A DNA stretch of 64,000 nt, from the sequence record NC_055712.1; one strand, written 5' to 3'. The translations under genes and the position numbers were made by a program. Origin of the DNA: Escherichia phage phT4A. Below are positions 14,884 through 64,000 of this stretch, piece by piece. The notes beneath the pieces are model-generated. The model saw only the letters and a program-made list of their open reading frames with translations. It was not told the DNA's origin and ran no database searches. Position 1 is the stretch's first letter, and each line of letters starts with the position of its first letter.

Positions 14884-16320
14884 TTAAAATTGAATGTCAG
14901 ATTTTGCAATCTGTGCCATTTTATCACGTCGGGTAGATTCAGCCTGTTTAATCATCGGGCCTTGTGTCTGTTCTACTGTTTTAGGCATAGTGTTGCCGTG
15001 GTAGTCAGATTTAAACCCGTATTCGCTGTTGTCGGTATCCATCCAGCGCTGATTACCCTTTCGAACTTCCAACTTGAACTTGTTGAAAGTGTTCTTATCG
15101 CCATAACGGGATTTGATTTGCTTGAACAGTTGCATACCCTGATCAGCTAACTCTTCCGTCTCGATTACAGCTAACATAAAATCAGCCGTAGCAGGTAAAC
15201 CAGCGGATTCCGCAACATCACCCATACTCACATCCGAACTATCCCATGCAGAACGCCCAACCTGTGCGCCTGTCCACATTACGGTATTAGTTTCAACAGC
15301 AAGACCGCGTAGTTCTTCGGCAATTGCTTTAACCAGAATATAGGTATTCTCAGCACCTTTAACACGGGTTGAAGTACAGATCCCCAGGTAATCGACAATG
15401 ATCACATCCGGAACAAACTGTTTCTTCAATTTAAGCTCTTTCACAAGCGCTCTAAAGTGGTTTGCACCTGCACCCGATGTAGGGTACTGCTTGACCACCA
15501 AACGCCCAACCTTACCCGCTTTAAGGCGCTCCATTTTGTTCTTATAGTCTGCGTATGTAATGTTCCCTTCGTCGATGTCATCCATAGTCACATCAAGAAG
15601 GTTAGCATCGATACGCTTAGAGCAAACATGCTCTGCCATTTCCATAGAAATGTAAAGAACGTTTTTACCCTGTTGCAGATAATCAGCCGCAAGAGAACAT
15701 AAGCCCAGTGATTTACCAACGTTAACACCAGCCATGATGATATTCAGTGTACCACGTTCCGCGCCGCCTTTGGTGATTGCGTTCAGGATCGGGATACCAA
15801 ACGGAATTTTCATCGCCTTCGATTGGTAAAGCATCCACCGTTTTTCATAATCTTCGAAATAGTCATGACCTACCGAACTATCGAATGAAATTGCTAATGC
15901 TTCCTCCATGATTTCAGGGATAGCCCCAACACCAGGAAGTTTCTTGTTCTGTTCTGCCAGTGGTTTTTCTGCGTTCGCCTGGATTTCGATTGCACGAGAA
16001 AGAGCACGATACATTGCTTTGTCTTTGCAATATGTTTCCGTTTCCTTCATTAGCCAATCTAAATCTTCTGGCGCATTTTTCAGCGACTGAATCGCCTTTT
16101 TCGTGTCTTCGTAGACTACATCACTTAGATTTCGTTTGTCAAGCGCAACCTCTAAAGCAGTTTTTGACGGAATGCCGTTGAATTCCTGTACATGTTTATC
16201 AATGAGGTCAAACAAAACTTGTGCATTGCCTTCAAAATATTCCTTTTTCAGATGAGGCCATGCTTGGACAAAATACGTCCCGTTATAAATCAGGTTAGAA
16301 AATATTGTATCAACGATCAT
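14884..16320 (-). CDS. 41: replicative DNA helicase (gp41, DnaB-like)
   Basis: 478 aa; Walker A GVNVGKS; RecA-like fold motifs. Confidence 0.9.
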   Translation of the reverse strand: MIVDTIFSNLIYNGTYFVQAWPHLKKEYFEGNAQVLFDLIDKHVQEFNGIPSKTALEVALDKRNLSDVVYEDTKKAIQSLKNAPEDLDWLMKETETYCKDKAMYRALSRAIEIQANAEKPLAEQNKKLPGVGAIPEIMEEALAISFDSSVGHDYFEDYEKRWMLYQSKAMKIPFGIPILNAITKGGAERGTLNIIMAGVNVGKSLGLCSLAADYLQQGKNVLYISMEMAEHVCSKRIDANLLDVTMDDIDEGNITYADYKNKMERLKAGKVGRLVVKQYPTSGAGANHFRALVKELKLKKQFVPDVIIVDYLGICTSTRVKGAENTYILVKAIAEELRGLAVETNTVMWTGAQVGRSAWDSSDVSMGDVAESAGLPATADFMLAVIETEELADQGMQLFKQIKSRYGDKNTFNKFKLEVRKGNQRWMDTDNSEYGFKSDYHGNTMPKTVEQTQGPMIKQAESTRRDKMAQIAKSDIQF

Positions 16321-53129: not shown

Positions 53130-53171
53130 AAAAATCCCTCCTAATATATCCTATTTACTAAATAGTAAATA

Positions 53172-58831: not shown

Positions 58832-59224
58832 ATGGGTGTAAATCTGAGGTTGCTATATAGCGATATAGAACCTAACATGCAACGAGATTGGAATAATGAC
58901 GTAGCGGCCTCAAAAGGGGCCGCAGCAGTAAGAAATAGTTTGATTGGTATCGTAACCACGATCAAGGGTACACGTCCATTTGATAGTAACTTTGGTTGTG
59001 CAATTAGTGATATGCTGTTTGAGAACATGAACCCTCTGACAGCGGAATCAATTAGAACTTCTATCGTATCTGCGATCCGGACATATGAGCCTAGAGTATA
59101 TAATCTTTCTGTTGAAGTCATTCCACAGTATGATGATAACTCAGTAACAGTAACTATCTATTACAGCATCATTGATGACCCGGATGACGTAGAGCAAATC
59201 AAACTACAGCTTTCCGCATCATAA
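58832..59224 (+). CDS. 25: baseplate wedge protein (gp25, GPW family)
   Basis: LYSDIEPNMQRDWNNDV, TIKGTRPFD, NFGC, IDDPDDVEQIKLQLSAS match recalled T4 gp25. Confidence 0.85.
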   Translation: MGVNLRLLYSDIEPNMQRDWNNDVAASKGAAAVRNSLIGIVTTIKGTRPFDSNFGCAISDMLFENMNPLTAESIRTSIVSAIRTYEPRVYNLSVEVIPQYDDNSVTVTIYYSIIDDPDDVEQIKLQLSAS

Positions 59225-59225
59225 C

Positions 59226-59260
59226 AAAAAGCCCCTTCCTTTCGGTTGGGGCTTTCTTTT
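59226..59260. terminator. bidirectional terminator hairpin between convergent genes
   Basis: AAAAAGCCCC-loop-GGGGCTTTCTTTT. Confidence 0.5.
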
Positions 59261-59714
59261 AGAATTCAATGAATCCCATTAGTGTTTGATATCGCAATTC
59301 AAACGGGGAGATATAACTTTGCATCTGGTTTTGATCGGATACGATGTAATAATACACCTCATCATTATCATCGTATAGTGCTTCTTTGATGATGCAATAT
59401 CGATCGGTTTCCACGTTCACATAAAGAGTATCCATGTACTTTGTAACTTTGGAACCCTGTGAACTGATTTCACGAATAGCGTTATCTATGAAAAGCGACA
59501 ATGCTTGCATGAAGTTATCAAACTCACCATATTCACAGCCCATAATAGAAATTGCAGTGTATTGGTGCCAGCCTTTGATTGTGTCTCCACGGCGGATCCA
59601 TCCAATTTGTCTACCCCCGATAGATACACACCACACTTTACCAACGGGACTATAGAACCGCACAACTTCTTTTAATAACAGGGACATGATCCCACATTTT
59701 GTATAAGGATTCAT
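59259..59714 (-). CDS. hypothetical protein
   Basis: 151 aa ORF. Confidence 0.5.
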   Translation of the reverse strand: MNPYTKCGIMSLLLKEVVRFYSPVGKVWCVSIGGRQIGWIRRGDTIKGWHQYTAISIMGCEYGEFDNFMQALSLFIDNAIREISSQGSKVTKYMDTLYVNVETDRYCIIKEALYDDNDEVYYYIVSDQNQMQSYISPFELRYQTLMGFIEF

Positions 59715-59721
59715 TTCAACC

Positions 59722-59973
59722 TCATTTCATATCAAGTAGCCAGGAAGGGCTAGTTTCAAGCGAAATTGCAGTATATTCGTATTTTACAGTATAACCTTTG
59801 AAACCGAAAGGAATGACTGCATTTTCATTGAGATATTTTACTTTATGCTTTGCTTCTTCTTCATTCAGAGCAGCACAGACTGTTGTTTGTTCAACGTTAC
59901 CAGCAGGAGAAGTAAATTTTTCAATGATAATGTATACGCAGTTCATCCTATTGCCCTCTTTCCATTTTTTCAA
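59722..59973 (-). CDS. hypothetical protein
   Basis: ORF. Confidence 0.4.
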   Translation of the reverse strand: MKKWKEGNRMNCVYIIIEKFTSPAGNVEQTTVCAALNEEEAKHKVKYLNENAVIPFGFKGYTVKYEYTAISLETSPSWLLDMK

Positions 59974-60232
59974 GTTTCAGTGTATCCACTTGTAGTTGAA
60001 GTTTAAGAATACAACCTTTCGATATGTTATACAAGTAGTCACTAACGATTTTTGACTTTACCTGATCGTAATCAGAAGATAACGTAATCCAATCATACAT
60101 CGTTTGGTATGATGGAAGATACGTACATTGTTCTTCTTTTGATAACGCTTTAAATGATTGGTAATCGGTTGGAGGTTCCGAAGCAATTGCGGTTGTGGTC
60201 ATAAGACTAAGTGCAAGTAGTAGATATTTCAT
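59948..60232 (-). CDS. secreted/periplasmic small protein (signal peptide)
   Basis: Start at MKYLLLALSLMTTTAIASEP; family-S cassette upstream. Confidence 0.5.
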   Translation of the reverse strand: MKYLLLALSLMTTTAIASEPPTDYQSFKALSKEEQCTYLPSYQTMYDWITLSSDYDQVKSKIVSDYLYNISKGCILKLQLQVDTLKLEKMERGQ

Positions 60233-60249
60233 AATGTATTCCTCATTGT

Positions 60250-60302
60250 TTTCGATAGAACCAATATAGCAAAAAGCCCCGACCGAAGTCAAGGGCTTTT
60301 TC
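60250..60302 (-). repeat. promoter-stem-loop cassette, family S
   Basis: aaaagcccTTGACTtcggtcggggctttttgcTATATTggttctATCGAAAAC on minus strand. Confidence 0.6.
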
Positions 60303-60303
60303 A

Positions 60304-60588
60304 TCAATGCAAGAAAGATTTCACGTACTGTTCGATCTTTTCACGACATGTATCAACTGAGGTGCTTTCCGCAATTACGGCATGACATAACGCCTCGCCT
60401 CCGACCCAGAAACTCATCATGTACTGAATATCACGACCTTCCATTTCTTTTTGATGCGCTTTGATTCGATCGAAAGCGTTTTCGATTGTTTCAGTAGCAG
60501 TAAGCATTTCGGATTCCCCGTCAACCTCCGCCAGTTCCCCATCGATCATTTCGCTTTCGACTTCTTCCCAGTATACTATCGTTATCAT
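60304..60588 (-). CDS. hypothetical acidic protein
   Basis: 94 aa, Glu/Asp-rich. Confidence 0.5.
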   Translation of the reverse strand: MITIVYWEEVESEMIDGELAEVDGESEMLTATETIENAFDRIKAHQKEMEGRDIQYMMSFWVGGEALCHAVIAESTSVDTCREKIEQYVKSFLH

Positions 60589-60603
60589 GCATTACCCCAG
60601 TGG

Positions 60604-61074
60604 TTAACCGTCGTAATCCCCGCCACAATTCACATCGCCTTCAATGAACAGTTCGCGGTTATCACGTAATAAATTATACTTTCTTTCGAGTTCAGGCCCG
60701 AACGCGTCGGCGTCTTCATACCAGCTATAATTGTATCTTCCGCATTCATCATCATATTCTGGTTCATCACCGCGCTCGTTGAAGTGAACAATTTTAATAT
60801 CGTCCATCCCCAGTTCTTTCAGCTTATCCCAGATATACGAAATCTCAACGCTATGGGAACCGAACGCTTCCAGTGAGATCGTACCGTCGCTATCGACTTG
60901 AGGAACACCCCACTTCGAACGAGTATCATCGGTGATCATATCTATTAATGACTCAATATTATTCTCACCGTAGATATCAGCAACTTCCTTTTCTTTACCA
61001 GGGCGAACAAGTCCGATCCCGATAATAAAGCTACTGCTTGAGCTATTGCTCACAAACCCAGAACGAATTTTCAT
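60604..61074 (-). CDS. hypothetical protein
   Basis: 156 aa ORF. Confidence 0.5.
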   Translation of the reverse strand: MKIRSGFVSNSSSSSFIIGIGLVRPGKEKEVADIYGENNIESLIDMITDDTRSKWGVPQVDSDGTISLEAFGSHSVEISYIWDKLKELGMDDIKIVHFNERGDEPEYDDECGRYNYSWYEDADAFGPELERKYNLLRDNRELFIEGDVNCGGDYDG

Positions 61075-61229
61075 CGCATCACCATATTACCAATCATGAA
61101 TAGAGGGATTAGCGCGAAGACGATACCCCATAGAATGACCTTATCTTCACGACGGTCACACCCATAATAGATAACACCTCCAGCGAAAATCAATACAACA
61201 ACTGAAACGAACGCGAATAAATAAATCAT
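61071..61229 (-). CDS. small membrane peptide (52 aa)
   Basis: Hand-translated MIYLFAFVSVVVLIFAGGVIYYG...; ATGA overlaps both neighbours. Confidence 0.35.
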   Translation of the reverse strand: MIYLFAFVSVVVLIFAGGVIYYGCDRREDKVILWGIVFALIPLFMIGNMVMR

Positions 61230-61876
61230 TTGCAGGTATCCATTCTCATAGAAACTTCTTTCAGGATCTTATTCAGATCGTGAAGCGCATCTTTTACGTT
61301 ACCTTCGTTATAGGTAAGCATATCCTGGTACAGCCCTTTCAAGCAACGATTGATTACATATGCTTTTTCAGAAGGTAACATTGTACCAGAGCGATTATAA
61401 TCTCTGAAAATGTCCATCATCGTGCCGTTGTTACCAGGTAATGACGGGTTGAAGTTAACCATACCGGACATCAAACTATCAACATACACAACTGTTGTGT
61501 TATCAGAACGATACGCGCCACCAACTTTAAACCAGTTGCTGAACACATACGGAGATTCCCGCACTTCGCTCAAATCGGTTCCGATTTCATCGATGTTTAC
61601 ACGAATGTTGTTAAAATACACCGATTCATCAATAGAACCATGACGCCATAAGATAGCACCATTGTTATTTTTGAATCCGACTACATCAACCTGCCAGCCG
61701 TTATCTGTTAACCGGACATCATCAACGACAATGAAATCAGGTAGCTGTGAATGAAAGCCGATGTTTTCAGGACGGGAATTACGAAACCCATCACGATTGG
61801 AGAAATAAAGGATGTCGCCTTGATTCAGTTCGCATATATTCATAAGATTTTTAAAGTCCAATTCAAGTAATTCCAC
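61226..61876 (-). CDS. hypothetical protein
   Basis: 216 aa ORF. Confidence 0.5.
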   Translation of the reverse strand: MELLELDFKNLMNICELNQGDILYFSNRDGFRNSRPENIGFHSQLPDFIVVDDVRLTDNGWQVDVVGFKNNNGAILWRHGSIDESVYFNNIRVNIDEIGTDLSEVRESPYVFSNWFKVGGAYRSDNTTVVYVDSLMSGMVNFNPSLPGNNGTMMDIFRDYNRSGTMLPSEKAYVINRCLKGLYQDMLTYNEGNVKDALHDLNKILKEVSMRMDTCK

Positions 61877-61912
61877 AAGTCACCTCAAAGCCCCCTTTCG
61901 GGGGCAAATTCA

Positions 61913-64000
61913 TTAGAGTTTGACTTCTTTTTCTTCCAGAACGATTGTGCAATCAAATTTCACATCTTTCCAGAATTCCGCTGCAACGATATCTGTTGCG
62001 GTAACGCTTACGCTGGTTTCTTCGAAATCCAGATCCGCAAACCATGCGTGTCCGACGACAATACCGTACATTACACGACTCAGGCGATTATTAAGGGCGC
62101 GAACCTCTTTAATAGTTTCCTTTGTCTGTTTATCAAGATACTCGATCAGGTCATTCTTGTCAAGCGCTTCGATCTCTTTAGATACGGTATCGTAAGCCCA
62201 CAGAATGATCAGGTCACCATTGTTGAGTTTCTTCTTACCTTCGGCGCGTTTTGCAACGGTAGCCGCAACAGCCGGAAGTGATGAAACGCCTTTGATTTTC
62301 ACGTTCAGTTCTTTCGACATGTAAACATCAGTCGATTCTGTGCGCTCAACCTTCGGAGAGAAGCCGTAATCACGGATCCCTTGCTCAGACAACCATTCAC
62401 CAGCCGCCTCGCCAAAACGCTGTTTAAGCCCTTCTGCGTTGCGTAAACCAATCGCGTTATCACGGAAGAACTTCATTACCTTCTGACGGCCTTTCAGGAT
62501 TTCCAGACGGACGTTATCAGCAACAAATTCCTTACCAGAAATACCGCGAGTCATCGAACGGTTAACCAGAGGCAGAGAGGTAAAGTCAACCAGTACAGAC
62601 ATACGGTCTTCACCAATTTTAGCCAGCGGTTTGATAGTCAGACCAGAAGCACGTAAGTTTTTCAGAGTCGGAATATCGGTTTCCAGCGGAAGTACCTTAA
62701 CGTTCACGATACCATCTTTAACAATGGTAAAGTTACGCACTTGTTTGGTTTCTACTTTTTCCGGTAATCCAAACTCTTTTTGTTTGCTTTCCGGAATGGT
62801 TACATAACCTTGCAGATCCGTATTGATGGAAATGTTCGGACGGGAACTGTTACCCACCAGGTGTTTCACTGCAACTTTCGTTGTGGTTTGGGTAAATTCC
62901 GGTTTCCATACTTCATGCGCTACCAGTTGCGCCGCCAGTGCTTTACGTTCTTCCGGAGTAGAAGCGTTTGCAATCTGTTCTGACAGTTTATCCAGAGTAT
63001 CATCATCTTTCTGGACAGTCTGACGGCCTGTACGATTGTACGCCCAGTGTTCAGAAGACAGGTCGATCACTGTGTCGGTTTCTGCCAGCAGTTCGAGAGC
63101 ATCAACCAGAGTAAACGCGTTTTCATCAGGAACCATGTTGTAATCAACACCATCCATCAGACGTTTAGCCGGATCAACAACCGCTTCGGAGATCATATCT
63201 TTAGCGTTGGAATAATCCTGTTTGGTAAAGCAGTTATCGTATGCTTTAATCAGACGCACATCACCCAGCTTTTTCAGAACTTTCCATGCCAGATCTGGAT
63301 TCATGGTATGAAGCGCATGATACAGAACCACATACAGAACCTGTTCACCTTCTGCTGTTGCCGGATCGAAGCCGTCAACGTCATTGATCGCGTTTTCACC
63401 CAGCGCCCAAATGTTTTTGATATGTTCCGGAACCAGAACAACACCATTTGCAGCATTCAGGACATACACACGGCCTTCATCCAGGTAGATCGCATGGGTT
63501 GCATCGCCAACTTTGACTTCAACACGTGCGGAGGTTTGCGCGGTAATGATTTCATCAAATGCAGGTACATACGCATCAAACCCTTCAACGAATTTGTGTA
63601 ATGCGTTGGTTGCTTCCGCCATTTTTTCCAGCAGAGGACGGTTTACATAATAACCATATTCCAGGAAAGCAATGTTGTTAAACGTCAACGGCAGAGTAGA
63701 ACACGCTTTCAGGATATCATCAGTACGCCAGCAGTTATCATAACCATCAGTCAGGAAGATCAGACTGTTCAGATTGCCATTATCCGCTTGCAGATCGGTA
63801 GCGACTTCAACCGCCAGTTGCAGAGGTTCAACGAAGCCAGTACATCCGGTCGGACGCAGATAACGATCGATAGCATCATTGATTTTGCTCAGGTCGGATA
63901 CAGAGCTAACCTTTTCGCCAACGAATACAGAACCGAACTGACCACGGCTGGAGAAATACAGAATAGATACGGTATCATCCTGTTTAACCAGCGTTGCCAG
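61913..64000 (-). CDS. large VWA-domain-containing protein, 5' end outside window
   Basis: Frame stays open upstream of the track start (TTG 63688) to the window edge; 63689-64000 encodes a VWA-like segment (...TGCTGF...LIFLTDGYDN); host-optimal codons. Confidence 0.65.
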   Translation of the reverse strand: MATLVKQDDTVSILYFSSRGQFGSVFVGEKVSSVSDLSKINDAIDRYLRPTGCTGFVEPLQLAVEVATDLQADNGNLNSLIFLTDGYDNCWRTDDILKACSTLPLTFNNIAFLEYGYYVNRPLLEKMAEATNALHKFVEGFDAYVPAFDEIITAQTSARVEVKVGDATHAIYLDEGRVYVLNAANGVVLVPEHIKNIWALGENAINDVDGFDPATAEGEQVLYVVLYHALHTMNPDLAWKVLKKLGDVRLIKAYDNCFTKQDYSNAKDMISEAVVDPAKRLMDGVDYNMVPDENAFTLVDALELLAETDTVIDLSSEHWAYNRTGRQTVQKDDDTLDKLSEQIANASTPEERKALAAQLVAHEVWKPEFTQTTTKVAVKHLVGNSSRPNISINTDLQGYVTIPESKQKEFGLPEKVETKQVRNFTIVKDGIVNVKVLPLETDIPTLKNLRASGLTIKPLAKIGEDRMSVLVDFTSLPLVNRSMTRGISGKEFVADNVRLEILKGRQKVMKFFRDNAIGLRNAEGLKQRFGEAAGEWLSEQGIRDYGFSPKVERTESTDVYMSKELNVKIKGVSSLPAVAATVAKRAEGKKKLNNGDLIILWAYDTVSKEIEALDKNDLIEYLDKQTKETIKEVRALNNRLSRVMYGIVVGHAWFADLDFEETSVSVTATDIVAAEFWKDVKFDCTIVLEEKEVKL

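What the first reader, a model, noticed from the sequence alone, without database searches (positions are those of the whole stretch)
61913..64000. Large VWA-domain protein running off the window, heading a minus-strand cluster of unknowns
The reading frame continues in-frame upstream of the track start to position 64000, and the extra 104 codons encode a VWA-like segment (RPTGCTGF...LIFLTDGYDNCW). The gene has host-optimal codon usage. It is followed by five co-directional unknowns (61226-61876, 61071-61229 membrane peptide, 60604-61074, 60304-60588 acidic, 59948-60232 signal-peptide protein). I cannot place any of these in the canonical T4 gene set, so this is the best candidate in the window for an uncharacterised accessory module. 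Function is open (anti-defence, injected protein or structural).
Basis: partly seen in the sequence, partly recalled or inferred. Interest (0 to 1): 0.65.

Follow-up and report, generated by a model that had tools for sequence, protein, structure and literature searches.

The report
Conserved phage vWA protein, function unknown
The open reading frame at the window edge is a real 738-residue metal-binding (von Willebrand A) protein that many large phages carry, whose job nobody has tested; it is not the head of a six-gene module.

Summary
The frame 61913-64000 (-) is open to the window edge. It is the last 695 of 738 codons of the Klebsiella Slopekvirus gene annotated in phage Miro as 'hypothetical protein, contains von Willebrand factor type A'. 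Only 43 N-terminal residues lie outside the window, and they hold the DxSxS metal-site motif. The protein has a vWA domain whose MIDAS residues are invariant in 80 homologues. This domain is packed with a beta-sandwich and a small helical bundle, as in archaeal ArnB, 4fx5 and the Sec23/24 trunk. About 420 further residues match no Pfam model and no solved structure. The family is large (about 1,360 clusters at 50% identity) with a fixed architecture. It occurs in Slopek-/Pseudoteven-type T4-like phages, all sampled Ackermannviridae, Rhizobium T4-likes and Bacillus AR9/PBS1. The 'six-gene module' reading fails. Co-directional genes continue upstream, a hairpin follows the vWA stop in 9 of 10 lineages, and the downstream ORFs occur only in Slopek-/Pseudotevenvirus. 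Published data argue against a major virion role. Most likely it is an intracellular, MIDAS-dependent protein-binding adaptor with an unknown partner. Moderate interest.

The parts
61913..64000 (-). 3' 94% of the vWA gene (codons 44-738 plus TAA). Orthologue of Miro FDI06_gp241 / YP_009607312. Codons 1-43, which include the MIDAS motif D24-V-S26-G-S28, lie beyond base 64000.
63542..64000 (-). vWA (Rossmann-like alpha/beta) domain, residues 44-196 of about 17-196. The MIDAS Thr97 codon is at 63839-63841 and the MIDAS Asp128 codon at 63746-63748.
63395..63532 (-). Small beta-sandwich (residues ~200-245) that co-aligns with the vWA domain onto 4fx5, ArnB, ITIH1 and Sec24.
63170..63394 (-). Helical bundle (residues ~246-320; boundary approximate), resembling the C-terminal helical bundle of ArnB/4fx5. 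Contains the conserved LGDV...NCFTKQDYS motif.
61916..63169 (-). Family-specific C-terminal module (residues ~321-738). Mixed beta/alpha, confidently modelled, with no Pfam model and no solved structural relative. Conserved motifs: RPNxS (430-434), RNYTIVKDGIxN (465-476), PLxNR (520-524), GIRDYGFSP (584-592), STDxYMSKELxVKIKGxSSLP (599-619).
61887..61905 (-). Hairpin GCCCCC-GAAA-GGGGGC followed by UUU, 7 nt after the vWA stop codon. Weak intrinsic terminator or RNA-stabilising hairpin; Miro's annotators call it a terminator.
   Evidence: Fold -19.7 kcal/mol, z -3.3. An analogous hairpin follows the gene in 9 of 10 lineages.
61226..61876 (-). 216-aa ORF (GTG start with GAGG ribosome-binding site; other annotators use an ATG at 61843, giving 205 aa). 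phrog_7309, unknown function. Found only in Slopek-/Pseudotevenvirus plus Yersinia phage JC221.
61071..61229 (-). 52-aa hydrophobic ORF with two hydrophobic segments. phrog_7160, unknown function.
60604..61074 (-). 156-aa acidic ORF with N-terminal MKIRSGFVSNSSSSSFI. The same 17/18 residues open a 171-aa ORF two genes upstream of the vWA gene. Narrow family of 36 database hits.
60304..60588 (-). 94-aa acidic ORF. phrog_7386, unknown function.
59948..60232 (-). 94-aa ORF with a signal-peptide-like N-terminus. A longer 118/119-aa version from an upstream start is annotated in some records. phrog_17592.
59259..59973 (-). They end at a bidirectional terminator shared with gp25 (~59226-59260).

Best explanation
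The ORF is the Slopekvirus copy of a widespread single-gene family of large myoviruses. It encodes a soluble, acidic protein of about 82 kDa with no signal peptide or membrane segment. [quoted passage not shown] Residues 321-738 form a family-specific module of unknown fold class. The most likely mechanism is as follows. Inside the infected cell, the MIDAS-bound divalent cation (probably Mg2+) is completed by an acidic side chain of a partner protein, as in other vWA domains. The conserved C-terminal module would supply the family-specific second activity or binding surface. On this reading the protein is a non-virion adaptor or scaffold rather than an enzyme with a recognisable active site. 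Shown here: gene identity, architecture, MIDAS invariance, wide distribution, terminal position in its transcription unit, and lack of a conserved gene partner. Inferred: intracellular site of action, protein ligand, adaptor role. Unknown: the partner, and the time of expression in this phage. The five downstream ORFs are lineage-restricted ORFans in a separate unit, not part of the same device.
Against: No experiment on any family member was found, so the adaptor role rests on what vWA/MIDAS domains do elsewhere. Expression timing is contradictory or unknown. In T4-like and Ackermannviridae genomes the gene sits among early/replication-type genes, but the AR9 homologue is transcribed late (FPKM 0.96, 105.6 and 431.5 at 5, 20 and 40 min). 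Late expression would also fit an assembly role or a low-copy virion role. The strongly conserved polar residues of the C-terminal module (R430, N432, N466, D472, K550, Y603) could form a catalytic site that I could not recognise. Their positions in 3D were not examined.
Confidence: 0.5

Rival explanations
1. Low-copy virion, injected or tail-associated protein. The vWA/MIDAS domain would act as an adhesin or as an internal protein delivered with the DNA.
Against: A single spectrum, in a list that also has RegB (31), ParB (11) and gp32 (5), looks like lysate carry-over. AR9 g068 is not among the proteins marked 'virion protein'. The Limestone-derived annotation carried into phage dinky names a nearby gene 'structural protein' but not this one. 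The gene is on the strand opposite to the baseplate genes, within an array of non-structural genes (nucleotidyltransferase, Dcm methylase). The 'tail protein' labels are unsupported transfers.
Confidence: 0.15
2. Accessory factor of phage DNA replication, repair or topology. The vWA domain would serve as a protein-docking module, as it does in Ku70/80, TFIIH p44/p34 or INTS13/14.
Against: Only the vWA part of Ku70 aligns (210 residues). No Ku, TFIIH or Integrator hit appears for the C-terminal model. The protein is acidic (pI 5.2), which does not suggest direct DNA binding. The topoisomerase linkage is absent in Slopekvirus, Pseudotevenvirus, Kuttervirus and AR9, and L006, L007 and L009 are one related clade. 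The AR9 copy is late, whereas AR9 gyrase genes are expressed from 5 min.
Confidence: 0.15
3. Host-takeover or anti-defence protein. It would sequester a host factor through the MIDAS site, and the C-terminal module would give target specificity.
For: The gene is absent from classical T4-type phages: only 37 'Escherichia' records hit, and the ones listed are RB43-type or Kuttervirus. It lies in plastic accessory regions with methyltransferases, homing endonucleases and ORFans. It is a stand-alone gene without a phage partner.
Against: There is no hit to any PADLOC model or known anti-defence family. The family is conserved over very different hosts (Enterobacteria, Vibrio, Shewanella, Rhizobium, Bacillus) at full length, with the same invariant residues. 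That fits a conserved phage-internal or universal target better than an arms-race protein. Late transcription in AR9 is unusual for a counter-defence factor.
Confidence: 0.15
4. One reading: the vWA gene and the five downstream ORFs form one six-gene accessory module headed by the vWA gene.
For: All six are co-directional and tightly spaced, and the order is kept in Slopekvirus and Pseudotevenvirus.
Against: A hairpin separates the vWA gene from the next ORF. Co-directional genes continue upstream. The downstream ORFs occur in 172 phage records, against 502 for the vWA gene. Neighbours are entirely different in Kuttervirus, AR9/PBS1 and six metagenomic T4-like lineages.
Confidence: 0.04

Closest known systems
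ArnB / ArnE (vWA2) of Sulfolobus acidocaldarius, and the bacterial look-alike 4fx5 (Catenulispora vWA protein)
   Different: Sequence identity is only 14-17%. The phage protein carries about 420 extra C-terminal residues that ArnB lacks. No ArnA-like FHA/zinc-finger partner or Ser/Thr kinase is encoded nearby. ArnB regulates archaellum expression, which is irrelevant in a phage.
Sec23/Sec24 trunk + beta-barrel + helical core (COPII inner coat)
   Different: There is no zinc finger, and no gelsolin-like hit for the C-terminal module. The Sec23/24 trunk lacks a functional MIDAS (general knowledge). The biology is unrelated.
Generic MIDAS-containing vWA domains (integrin I domains, anthrax toxin receptors, ITIH heavy chains, CaV alpha2delta)
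   Different: Those are extracellular proteins. The phage protein has no signal peptide and a different C-terminal half.
MoxR-AAA+/vWA pairs (RavA-ViaA, NorQ-NorD, CbbQ-CbbO, BchI-BchD) and phage CobS/CobT
   Different: No AAA+ MoxR gene lies next to the vWA gene in any of the loci examined. The vWA domain is N-terminal here, not C-terminal as in CobT, BchD and ViaA (general knowledge).
PHROG phrog_2426 / GenBank 'vWA domain-containing hypothetical protein' of Slopekvirus, Pseudotevenvirus, Ackermannviridae and AR9
   Same: This is the family itself: full-length match, E = 0, 1137 bits. Miro gp241, dinky_56 and AR9 g068 are members.
   Different: Nothing differs. The family has no assigned function.

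Membership tests
vWA domain superfamily with MIDAS | Sequence match to curated vWA profiles above their gathering scores | tested here: met
   VWA_2 scores 29.2 bits (cut-off 27) and VWA 26.4 (cut-off 23.8) on residues 20-175 of the full-length protein. Not met by the window fragment alone.
vWA domain superfamily with MIDAS | DxSxS ... T ... D metal-coordinating residues | tested here: met
   D24, S26, S28, T97 and D128 are invariant in 80 homologues of 34-100% identity. DxSxS lies outside the window; T97 and D128 lie inside it.
vWA domain superfamily with MIDAS | Rossmann-like alpha/beta fold | tested here: met
vWA domain superfamily with MIDAS | Actual metal and ligand binding | not testable with these tools
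   Needs biochemistry.
ArnB / Sec23-24 'core motif' architecture | vWA and beta-sandwich packed together | tested here: met
ArnB / Sec23-24 'core motif' architecture | Helical bundle following the beta-sandwich | tested here: inconclusive
ArnB / Sec23-24 'core motif' architecture | FHA/zinc-finger partner (ArnA) and kinase/phosphatase control, or zinc finger plus gelsolin domain (Sec23/24) | tested here: not met
   No such Pfam domains in the neighbouring genes of the annotated or gene-called loci. No gelsolin-like hit.
Ku70/Ku80 | Ku beta-barrel/ring core after the vWA domain | tested here: not met
MoxR-vWA two-gene systems | Adjacent AAA+ MoxR-type ATPase gene | tested here: not met
   None within 6-9 kb in Slopekvirus, Pseudotevenvirus, Kuttervirus, PBS1/AR9 or six metagenomic lineages.
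Phage virion structural proteins | Reproducible detection in purified virions | tested here: not met
   Literature only. One spectrum in Sajous1 (PMC10892097). AR9 g068 is not marked as a virion protein (PMC5312081 Table S4). No Slopekvirus virion proteome was found.
Known anti-phage defence / counter-defence families | Match to a PADLOC model | tested here: not met
   No PADLOC hit at E<=0.1.
Canonical T4 gene set | Orthologue in T4-type (Tequatrovirus) genomes | tested here: not met
   tblastn finds 502 records, but only 37 are named 'Escherichia', and those listed are RB43-type or Kuttervirus. T4 itself was not queried separately.

The most novel reading that the evidence does not exclude
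The family is a virus-specific branch of the ArnB/Sec23-24 lineage of vWA adaptors, with at least 1,300 clusters at 50% identity. It would have fused that core to a roughly 420-residue module of a previously undescribed fold. On this reading it performs a so-far unrecognised, MIDAS-dependent step common to large myoviruses of Gram-negative and Gram-positive hosts, for example a late-acting assembly, packaging or host-remodelling hub.
Probability: 0.25. Interest if true: 0.6.

Novelty: new variant of a known kind. Interest (0 to 1): 0.4.

Why it matters
A full-length protein of about 740 residues is kept with invariant metal-site residues across T4-like phages, Ackermannviridae, Rhizobium phages and the uracil-DNA Bacillus phages AR9/PBS1. 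It is therefore almost certainly doing something important for large myoviruses. Yet it has no assigned function, inconsistent database labels, and a C-terminal half with no structural relatives. Many carriers are therapeutic candidates (Klebsiella Slopekvirus, Salmonella and E. coli Kuttervirus), so knowing what the protein binds has practical value. For genome annotation, the concrete gains are three. Labels such as 'minor tail protein', 'sortase target' and 'proximal thread matrix protein' are unsupported. The gene is a stand-alone unit. The neighbouring small ORFs are lineage-restricted and unrelated to it.

Tried and rejected
1. Pfam on the window fragment and on all neighbouring ORFs found nothing. 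NCBIfam gave only sub-threshold vWA-type hits, and PADLOC gave nothing for the vWA protein.

2. PDB sequence searches with the single protein, the full-length profile and the C-terminal profile found only weak vWA hits. A weak FtsZ hit (E 0.014) was dismissed as chance.

4. I looked for a MoxR or kinase/FHA partner in the neighbourhoods of the annotated or gene-called loci and found none.

5. I looked for a conserved neighbour by all-against-all BLASTP of ORFs within 6 kb across ten loci. Nothing is shared between major lineages except the topoisomerase II large subunit, in one clade plus a Vibrio phage.

6. I tried to infer expression class from promoter motifs.
- The sigma-70 and terminator consensus scans were at or below chance.
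- TATAAATA occurs once in the 64-kb window and not at all in the 22.8-kb locus.
- A TATAAAT lies 9 nt before the vWA ATG just outside the window. It is too close to be a plausible promoter and is not conserved in GAP161.
- Timing in this phage therefore stays unresolved.

7. Literature searches for Slopekvirus or Ackermannviridae transcriptomes and Slopekvirus virion proteomes gave nothing usable.

8. Rfam and tRNA scans of 59000-64000 found nothing.

9. The PHROG 'head-tail adaptor' hit of the 156-aa ORF (1e-9) was not accepted as a function. The family is narrow and unannotated and has no PDB relatives.

10. The codon-usage claim could not be tested without a host genome.

Full report
**Where the window comes from.** The last 4.8 kb of the window are 99.5-99.7% identical to Klebsiella phages of the genus Slopekvirus (Miro, PMBT1, CP-p-KP-21068 and about 110 others). 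They are 80-90% identical to RB43-type Pseudotevenvirus phages of Enterobacter, Cronobacter, Citrobacter and E. coli. I used the annotated records of Miro (locus L001) and CP-p-KP-21068 (locus L002) to read beyond base 64000.

**The observation.**
- The minus-strand frame from the TAA at 61913-61915 is open to base 64000: 695 codons, including RPTGCTGF and LIFLTDGYDNCW.
- In the near-identical genomes the gene is 2217 nt / 738 aa, starting 129 nt beyond the window.
Nor is much missing: only residues 1-43.
- Those 43 residues contain the DxSxS half of the metal site (D24-V-S-G-S28). This explains why the window fragment alone gives no Pfam hit, while the full protein passes the VWA_2 and VWA gathering scores.
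- The window part is identical to database protein P0001.
- Miro's annotators already noted 'contains von Willebrand factor, type A'.

**Architecture.**
- A diverse 80-sequence alignment (34-100% identity) shows D24, S26, S28, T97 and D128, the complete MIDAS, as invariant.
- AlphaFold2 on this alignment gives a confident model (mean pLDDT 89.8, pTM 0.70).
- The best matches are not bare vWA domains but vWA plus beta-sandwich proteins:
  - The rest are generic helical bundles.
- According to PMC12852372, ArnB consists of a vWA domain, a beta-sandwich and a C-terminal four-helix bundle. The same paper describes this arrangement as the core of Sec23/24 and says it is also seen in 4fx5 and predicted for E. 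coli YfbK.
- Residues 1-~320 of the phage protein therefore reproduce an ArnB-type three-domain core.
- Residues ~321-738 have no Pfam family, no PDB sequence relative and no solved structural relative, although they contain the longest invariant motifs of the family.
- The protein is acidic (pI 5.2), about 82 kDa, and has no signal peptide or membrane-spanning stretch.

**Distribution.**
- A word-indexed search found 219 homologues, nearly all full length.
- tblastn finds the gene in 502 phage records:
  - Slopekvirus and Pseudotevenvirus.
  - Apparently all sampled Ackermannviridae genera (Kuttervirus, Limestonevirus, Taipeivirus, phiMAM1/3M types).
  - Aeromonas, Alishewanella, Shewanella and Vibrio phages.
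  - Rhizobium T4-like phages.
  - The Bacillus jumbo phages PBS1/AR9.
- The PBS1 protein finds the Klebsiella and Salmonella copies in return (422 records at E<=1e-20).
- An exhaustive profile search with only the C-terminal module gives 1,361 representative clusters (50% identity level) at E<=1e-3, and 888 at E<=1e-30.
- Nearly all listed hits are 680-820 aa with the module beginning at residue 250-310. The two halves therefore travel together.
- Contigs that carry diverged members are 77-200 kb and T-even-like.
- A scan of one genome per prokaryotic species found only five loci:
  - One is an obvious phage-sized contig inside a Flagellimonas assembly.
  - Two are rumen MAG contigs.
  - Two lie on larger contigs: Achromobacter anxifer (487 kb) and Novimethylophilus (225 kb).
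- The Achromobacter protein is 33% identical over 705 residues and keeps the MIDAS.
- Its neighbours are unknowns. The Novimethylophilus copy lies next to a ClpP-like protease.
- The family is thus overwhelmingly viral.

**Is it the head of a six-gene module? No.**
- The gene lies inside a long array of tightly packed co-directional genes that runs from at least 8 kb upstream (cytidyltransferase, an NrdC.11-like nucleotidyltransferase, a Dcm methyltransferase, many ORFans) down to the terminator shared with gp25.
- Seven nucleotides after the vWA stop there is a GCCCCC-GAAA-GGGGGC hairpin followed by UUU (-19.7 kcal/mol, z -3.3). Miro's annotators call it a terminator.
- A hairpin or clear intrinsic terminator directly follows the vWA gene in 9 of the 10 lineages I could read. 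The gene is typically the last of its transcription unit, not the first.
- The 216-aa and 156-aa ORFs downstream occur in only 172 records, all Slopek-/Pseudotevenvirus-type plus one Yersinia phage. The 156-aa family has 36 members in 5.8 billion proteins.
- In Kuttervirus the vWA gene is followed by an acyl carrier protein and lies between the RegA/clamp-loader genes and the spanins.
- In AR9 it is a lone gene on the opposite strand from its early neighbours.
- In six metagenomic lineages the neighbours differ again.
- All-against-all BLASTP of flanking ORFs finds no partner conserved across lineages.
- The small ORFs all fall in PHROGs of unknown function. The single exception, a 'head-tail adaptor' hit for the 156-aa ORF, I do not trust.

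**What does it do?** No experiment on any member was found. The evidence that constrains function is as follows.
- (a) A perfectly conserved MIDAS implies metal-mediated binding of an acidic ligand, as established for vWA domains in general.
- (b) The absence of export signals implies a cytoplasmic (or virion) location.
- (c) Published virion proteomics argue against a major structural role.
  - The Vi01-like phage Sajous1 gave one spectrum, listed among DNA/RNA-process proteins alongside RegB (31 spectra) (PMC10892097).
  - The AR9 homologue g068 is not flagged as a virion protein (PMC5312081 Table S4).
  - I confirmed by sequence and gene order that g068 is the homologue.
- (d) Timing is the weakest point.
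  - In T4-like and Ackermannviridae genomes the gene sits with early/replication-type genes, several times next to topoisomerase II genes. In L007 it lies directly between the two subunit genes.
  - The one measured case, AR9, is late: FPKM 0.96, 105.6 and 431.5 at 5, 20 and 40 min.
  - Promoter motifs in this phage were uninformative.
- (e) No MoxR ATPase, kinase, FHA or other recurrent partner is encoded nearby.

I therefore commit to the general mechanism 'non-virion, MIDAS-dependent protein-binding adaptor whose specificity lies in the novel C-terminal module', with confidence 0.5. I keep three more specific readings as rivals at about 0.15 each: low-copy virion protein, replication/topology accessory, and host-takeover/anti-defence. 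The six-gene-module reading gets 0.04.

**Comparison with what is known.**
- In fold and domain order the protein works like the ArnB/4fx5/Sec23-24 core. It fails membership in that family on the partner and regulatory features, and it adds a large extra module.
- It is a bona fide member of the vWA/MIDAS superfamily and of PHROG phrog_2426.
- It is not Ku-like, not a MoxR partner, and not in the T4 core set.
- I rate it a new variant of a known kind.

**Verdict.** The feature is real and correctly recognised as a vWA protein. The gene is already annotated as such in public records. The modular interpretation is wrong. The protein belongs to a large, conserved, functionally unstudied phage family with an unassigned C-terminal fold. 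Interest is moderate (0.4).

Noticed in passing
window 60604-61074 (-) and L002:14260-14775 (-), the second being two genes upstream of the vWA gene and beyond the window: Two otherwise dissimilar small proteins (156 and 171 aa) flank the vWA gene and start with the same 17 of 18 residues, MKIRSGFVSNSSSSSFI. The DNA of that stretch is only 83% identical, with different serine codons. The peptide motif itself therefore seems to be under selection, rather than reflecting a recent duplication. No function is known.
   Followed up: partly
whole window; example at 53130-53171: The T4 late-promoter octamer TATAAATA occurs only once in 64 kb (9346), although the window holds many late structural genes. 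The divergent gp27/gp28 intergenic region carries CTAAATA and GTAAATA instead. This suggests that Slopekvirus late promoters deviate from the T4 consensus.
   Followed up: partly
L001-L010, immediately 3' of each vWA gene; window 61887-61905: A GC-rich hairpin or clear intrinsic terminator follows the vWA stop codon in 9 of 10 diverged lineages (Slopekvirus, Pseudotevenvirus, Kuttervirus, PBS1 and five metagenomic T4-likes). The position is conserved but the sequence is not.
   Followed up: yes
L015:3089-5269 (Achromobacter anxifer LMG 26857, 487-kb contig) and L014:3122-5269 (Novimethylophilus kurashikiensis, 225-kb contig): Full-length family members with an intact MIDAS sit on large bacterial contigs. 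Their neighbours have no PHROG hits in Achromobacter (two small P-loop proteins) and include a ClpP-like protease in Novimethylophilus. Whether these are prophages or cellular islands is undecided.
   Followed up: partly
L013 (Flagellimonas marina CGMCC 1.15774, contig of 178,077 bp): A marine Flavobacteriia genome assembly contains a 178-kb contig encoding an 86%-identical copy of the C-terminal module. The size and identity fit an enterobacterial RB43/Slopek-type phage genome, so this is probably contamination of the assembly.
   Followed up: no
GenBank records hit: Orthologues of this one protein carry many different labels: hypothetical protein, vWA-containing protein, minor tail protein, tail protein, proximal thread matrix protein 1, marine proteobacterial sortase target protein, and divalent metal binding domain protein. 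Apart from the labels that simply name the vWA or metal-binding domain, none is supported by evidence found here.
   Followed up: yes
window 59226-59260: A GC-rich hairpin (AGCCCC...GGGGCT) flanked by A-runs and T-runs lies between the convergent gp25 gene (+) and the 151-aa ORF (-). It looks like a bidirectional terminator closing both the baseplate operon and the minus-strand array.
   Followed up: partly
L007:5120-10440 (metagenomic T4-like contig SRR15927517_127237): The vWA gene is inserted directly between the genes for the two topoisomerase II subunits (gp39-like and gp52-like). In two related contigs and a Vibrio phage it lies within 1-4.3 kb of them.
   Followed up: partly
L002 ~15987-16046 (-), beyond the window: A good sigma-70-type promoter (TTGCAT, 17 nt spacer, TATAGT) precedes a 92-aa ORF. 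A strong terminator (AAGCCCCTTTTGGGGCTTTTT) follows that ORF. The five to six genes ending with the vWA gene lie between this terminator and the hairpin after the vWA gene, and no recognisable promoter of their own was found.
   Followed up: no
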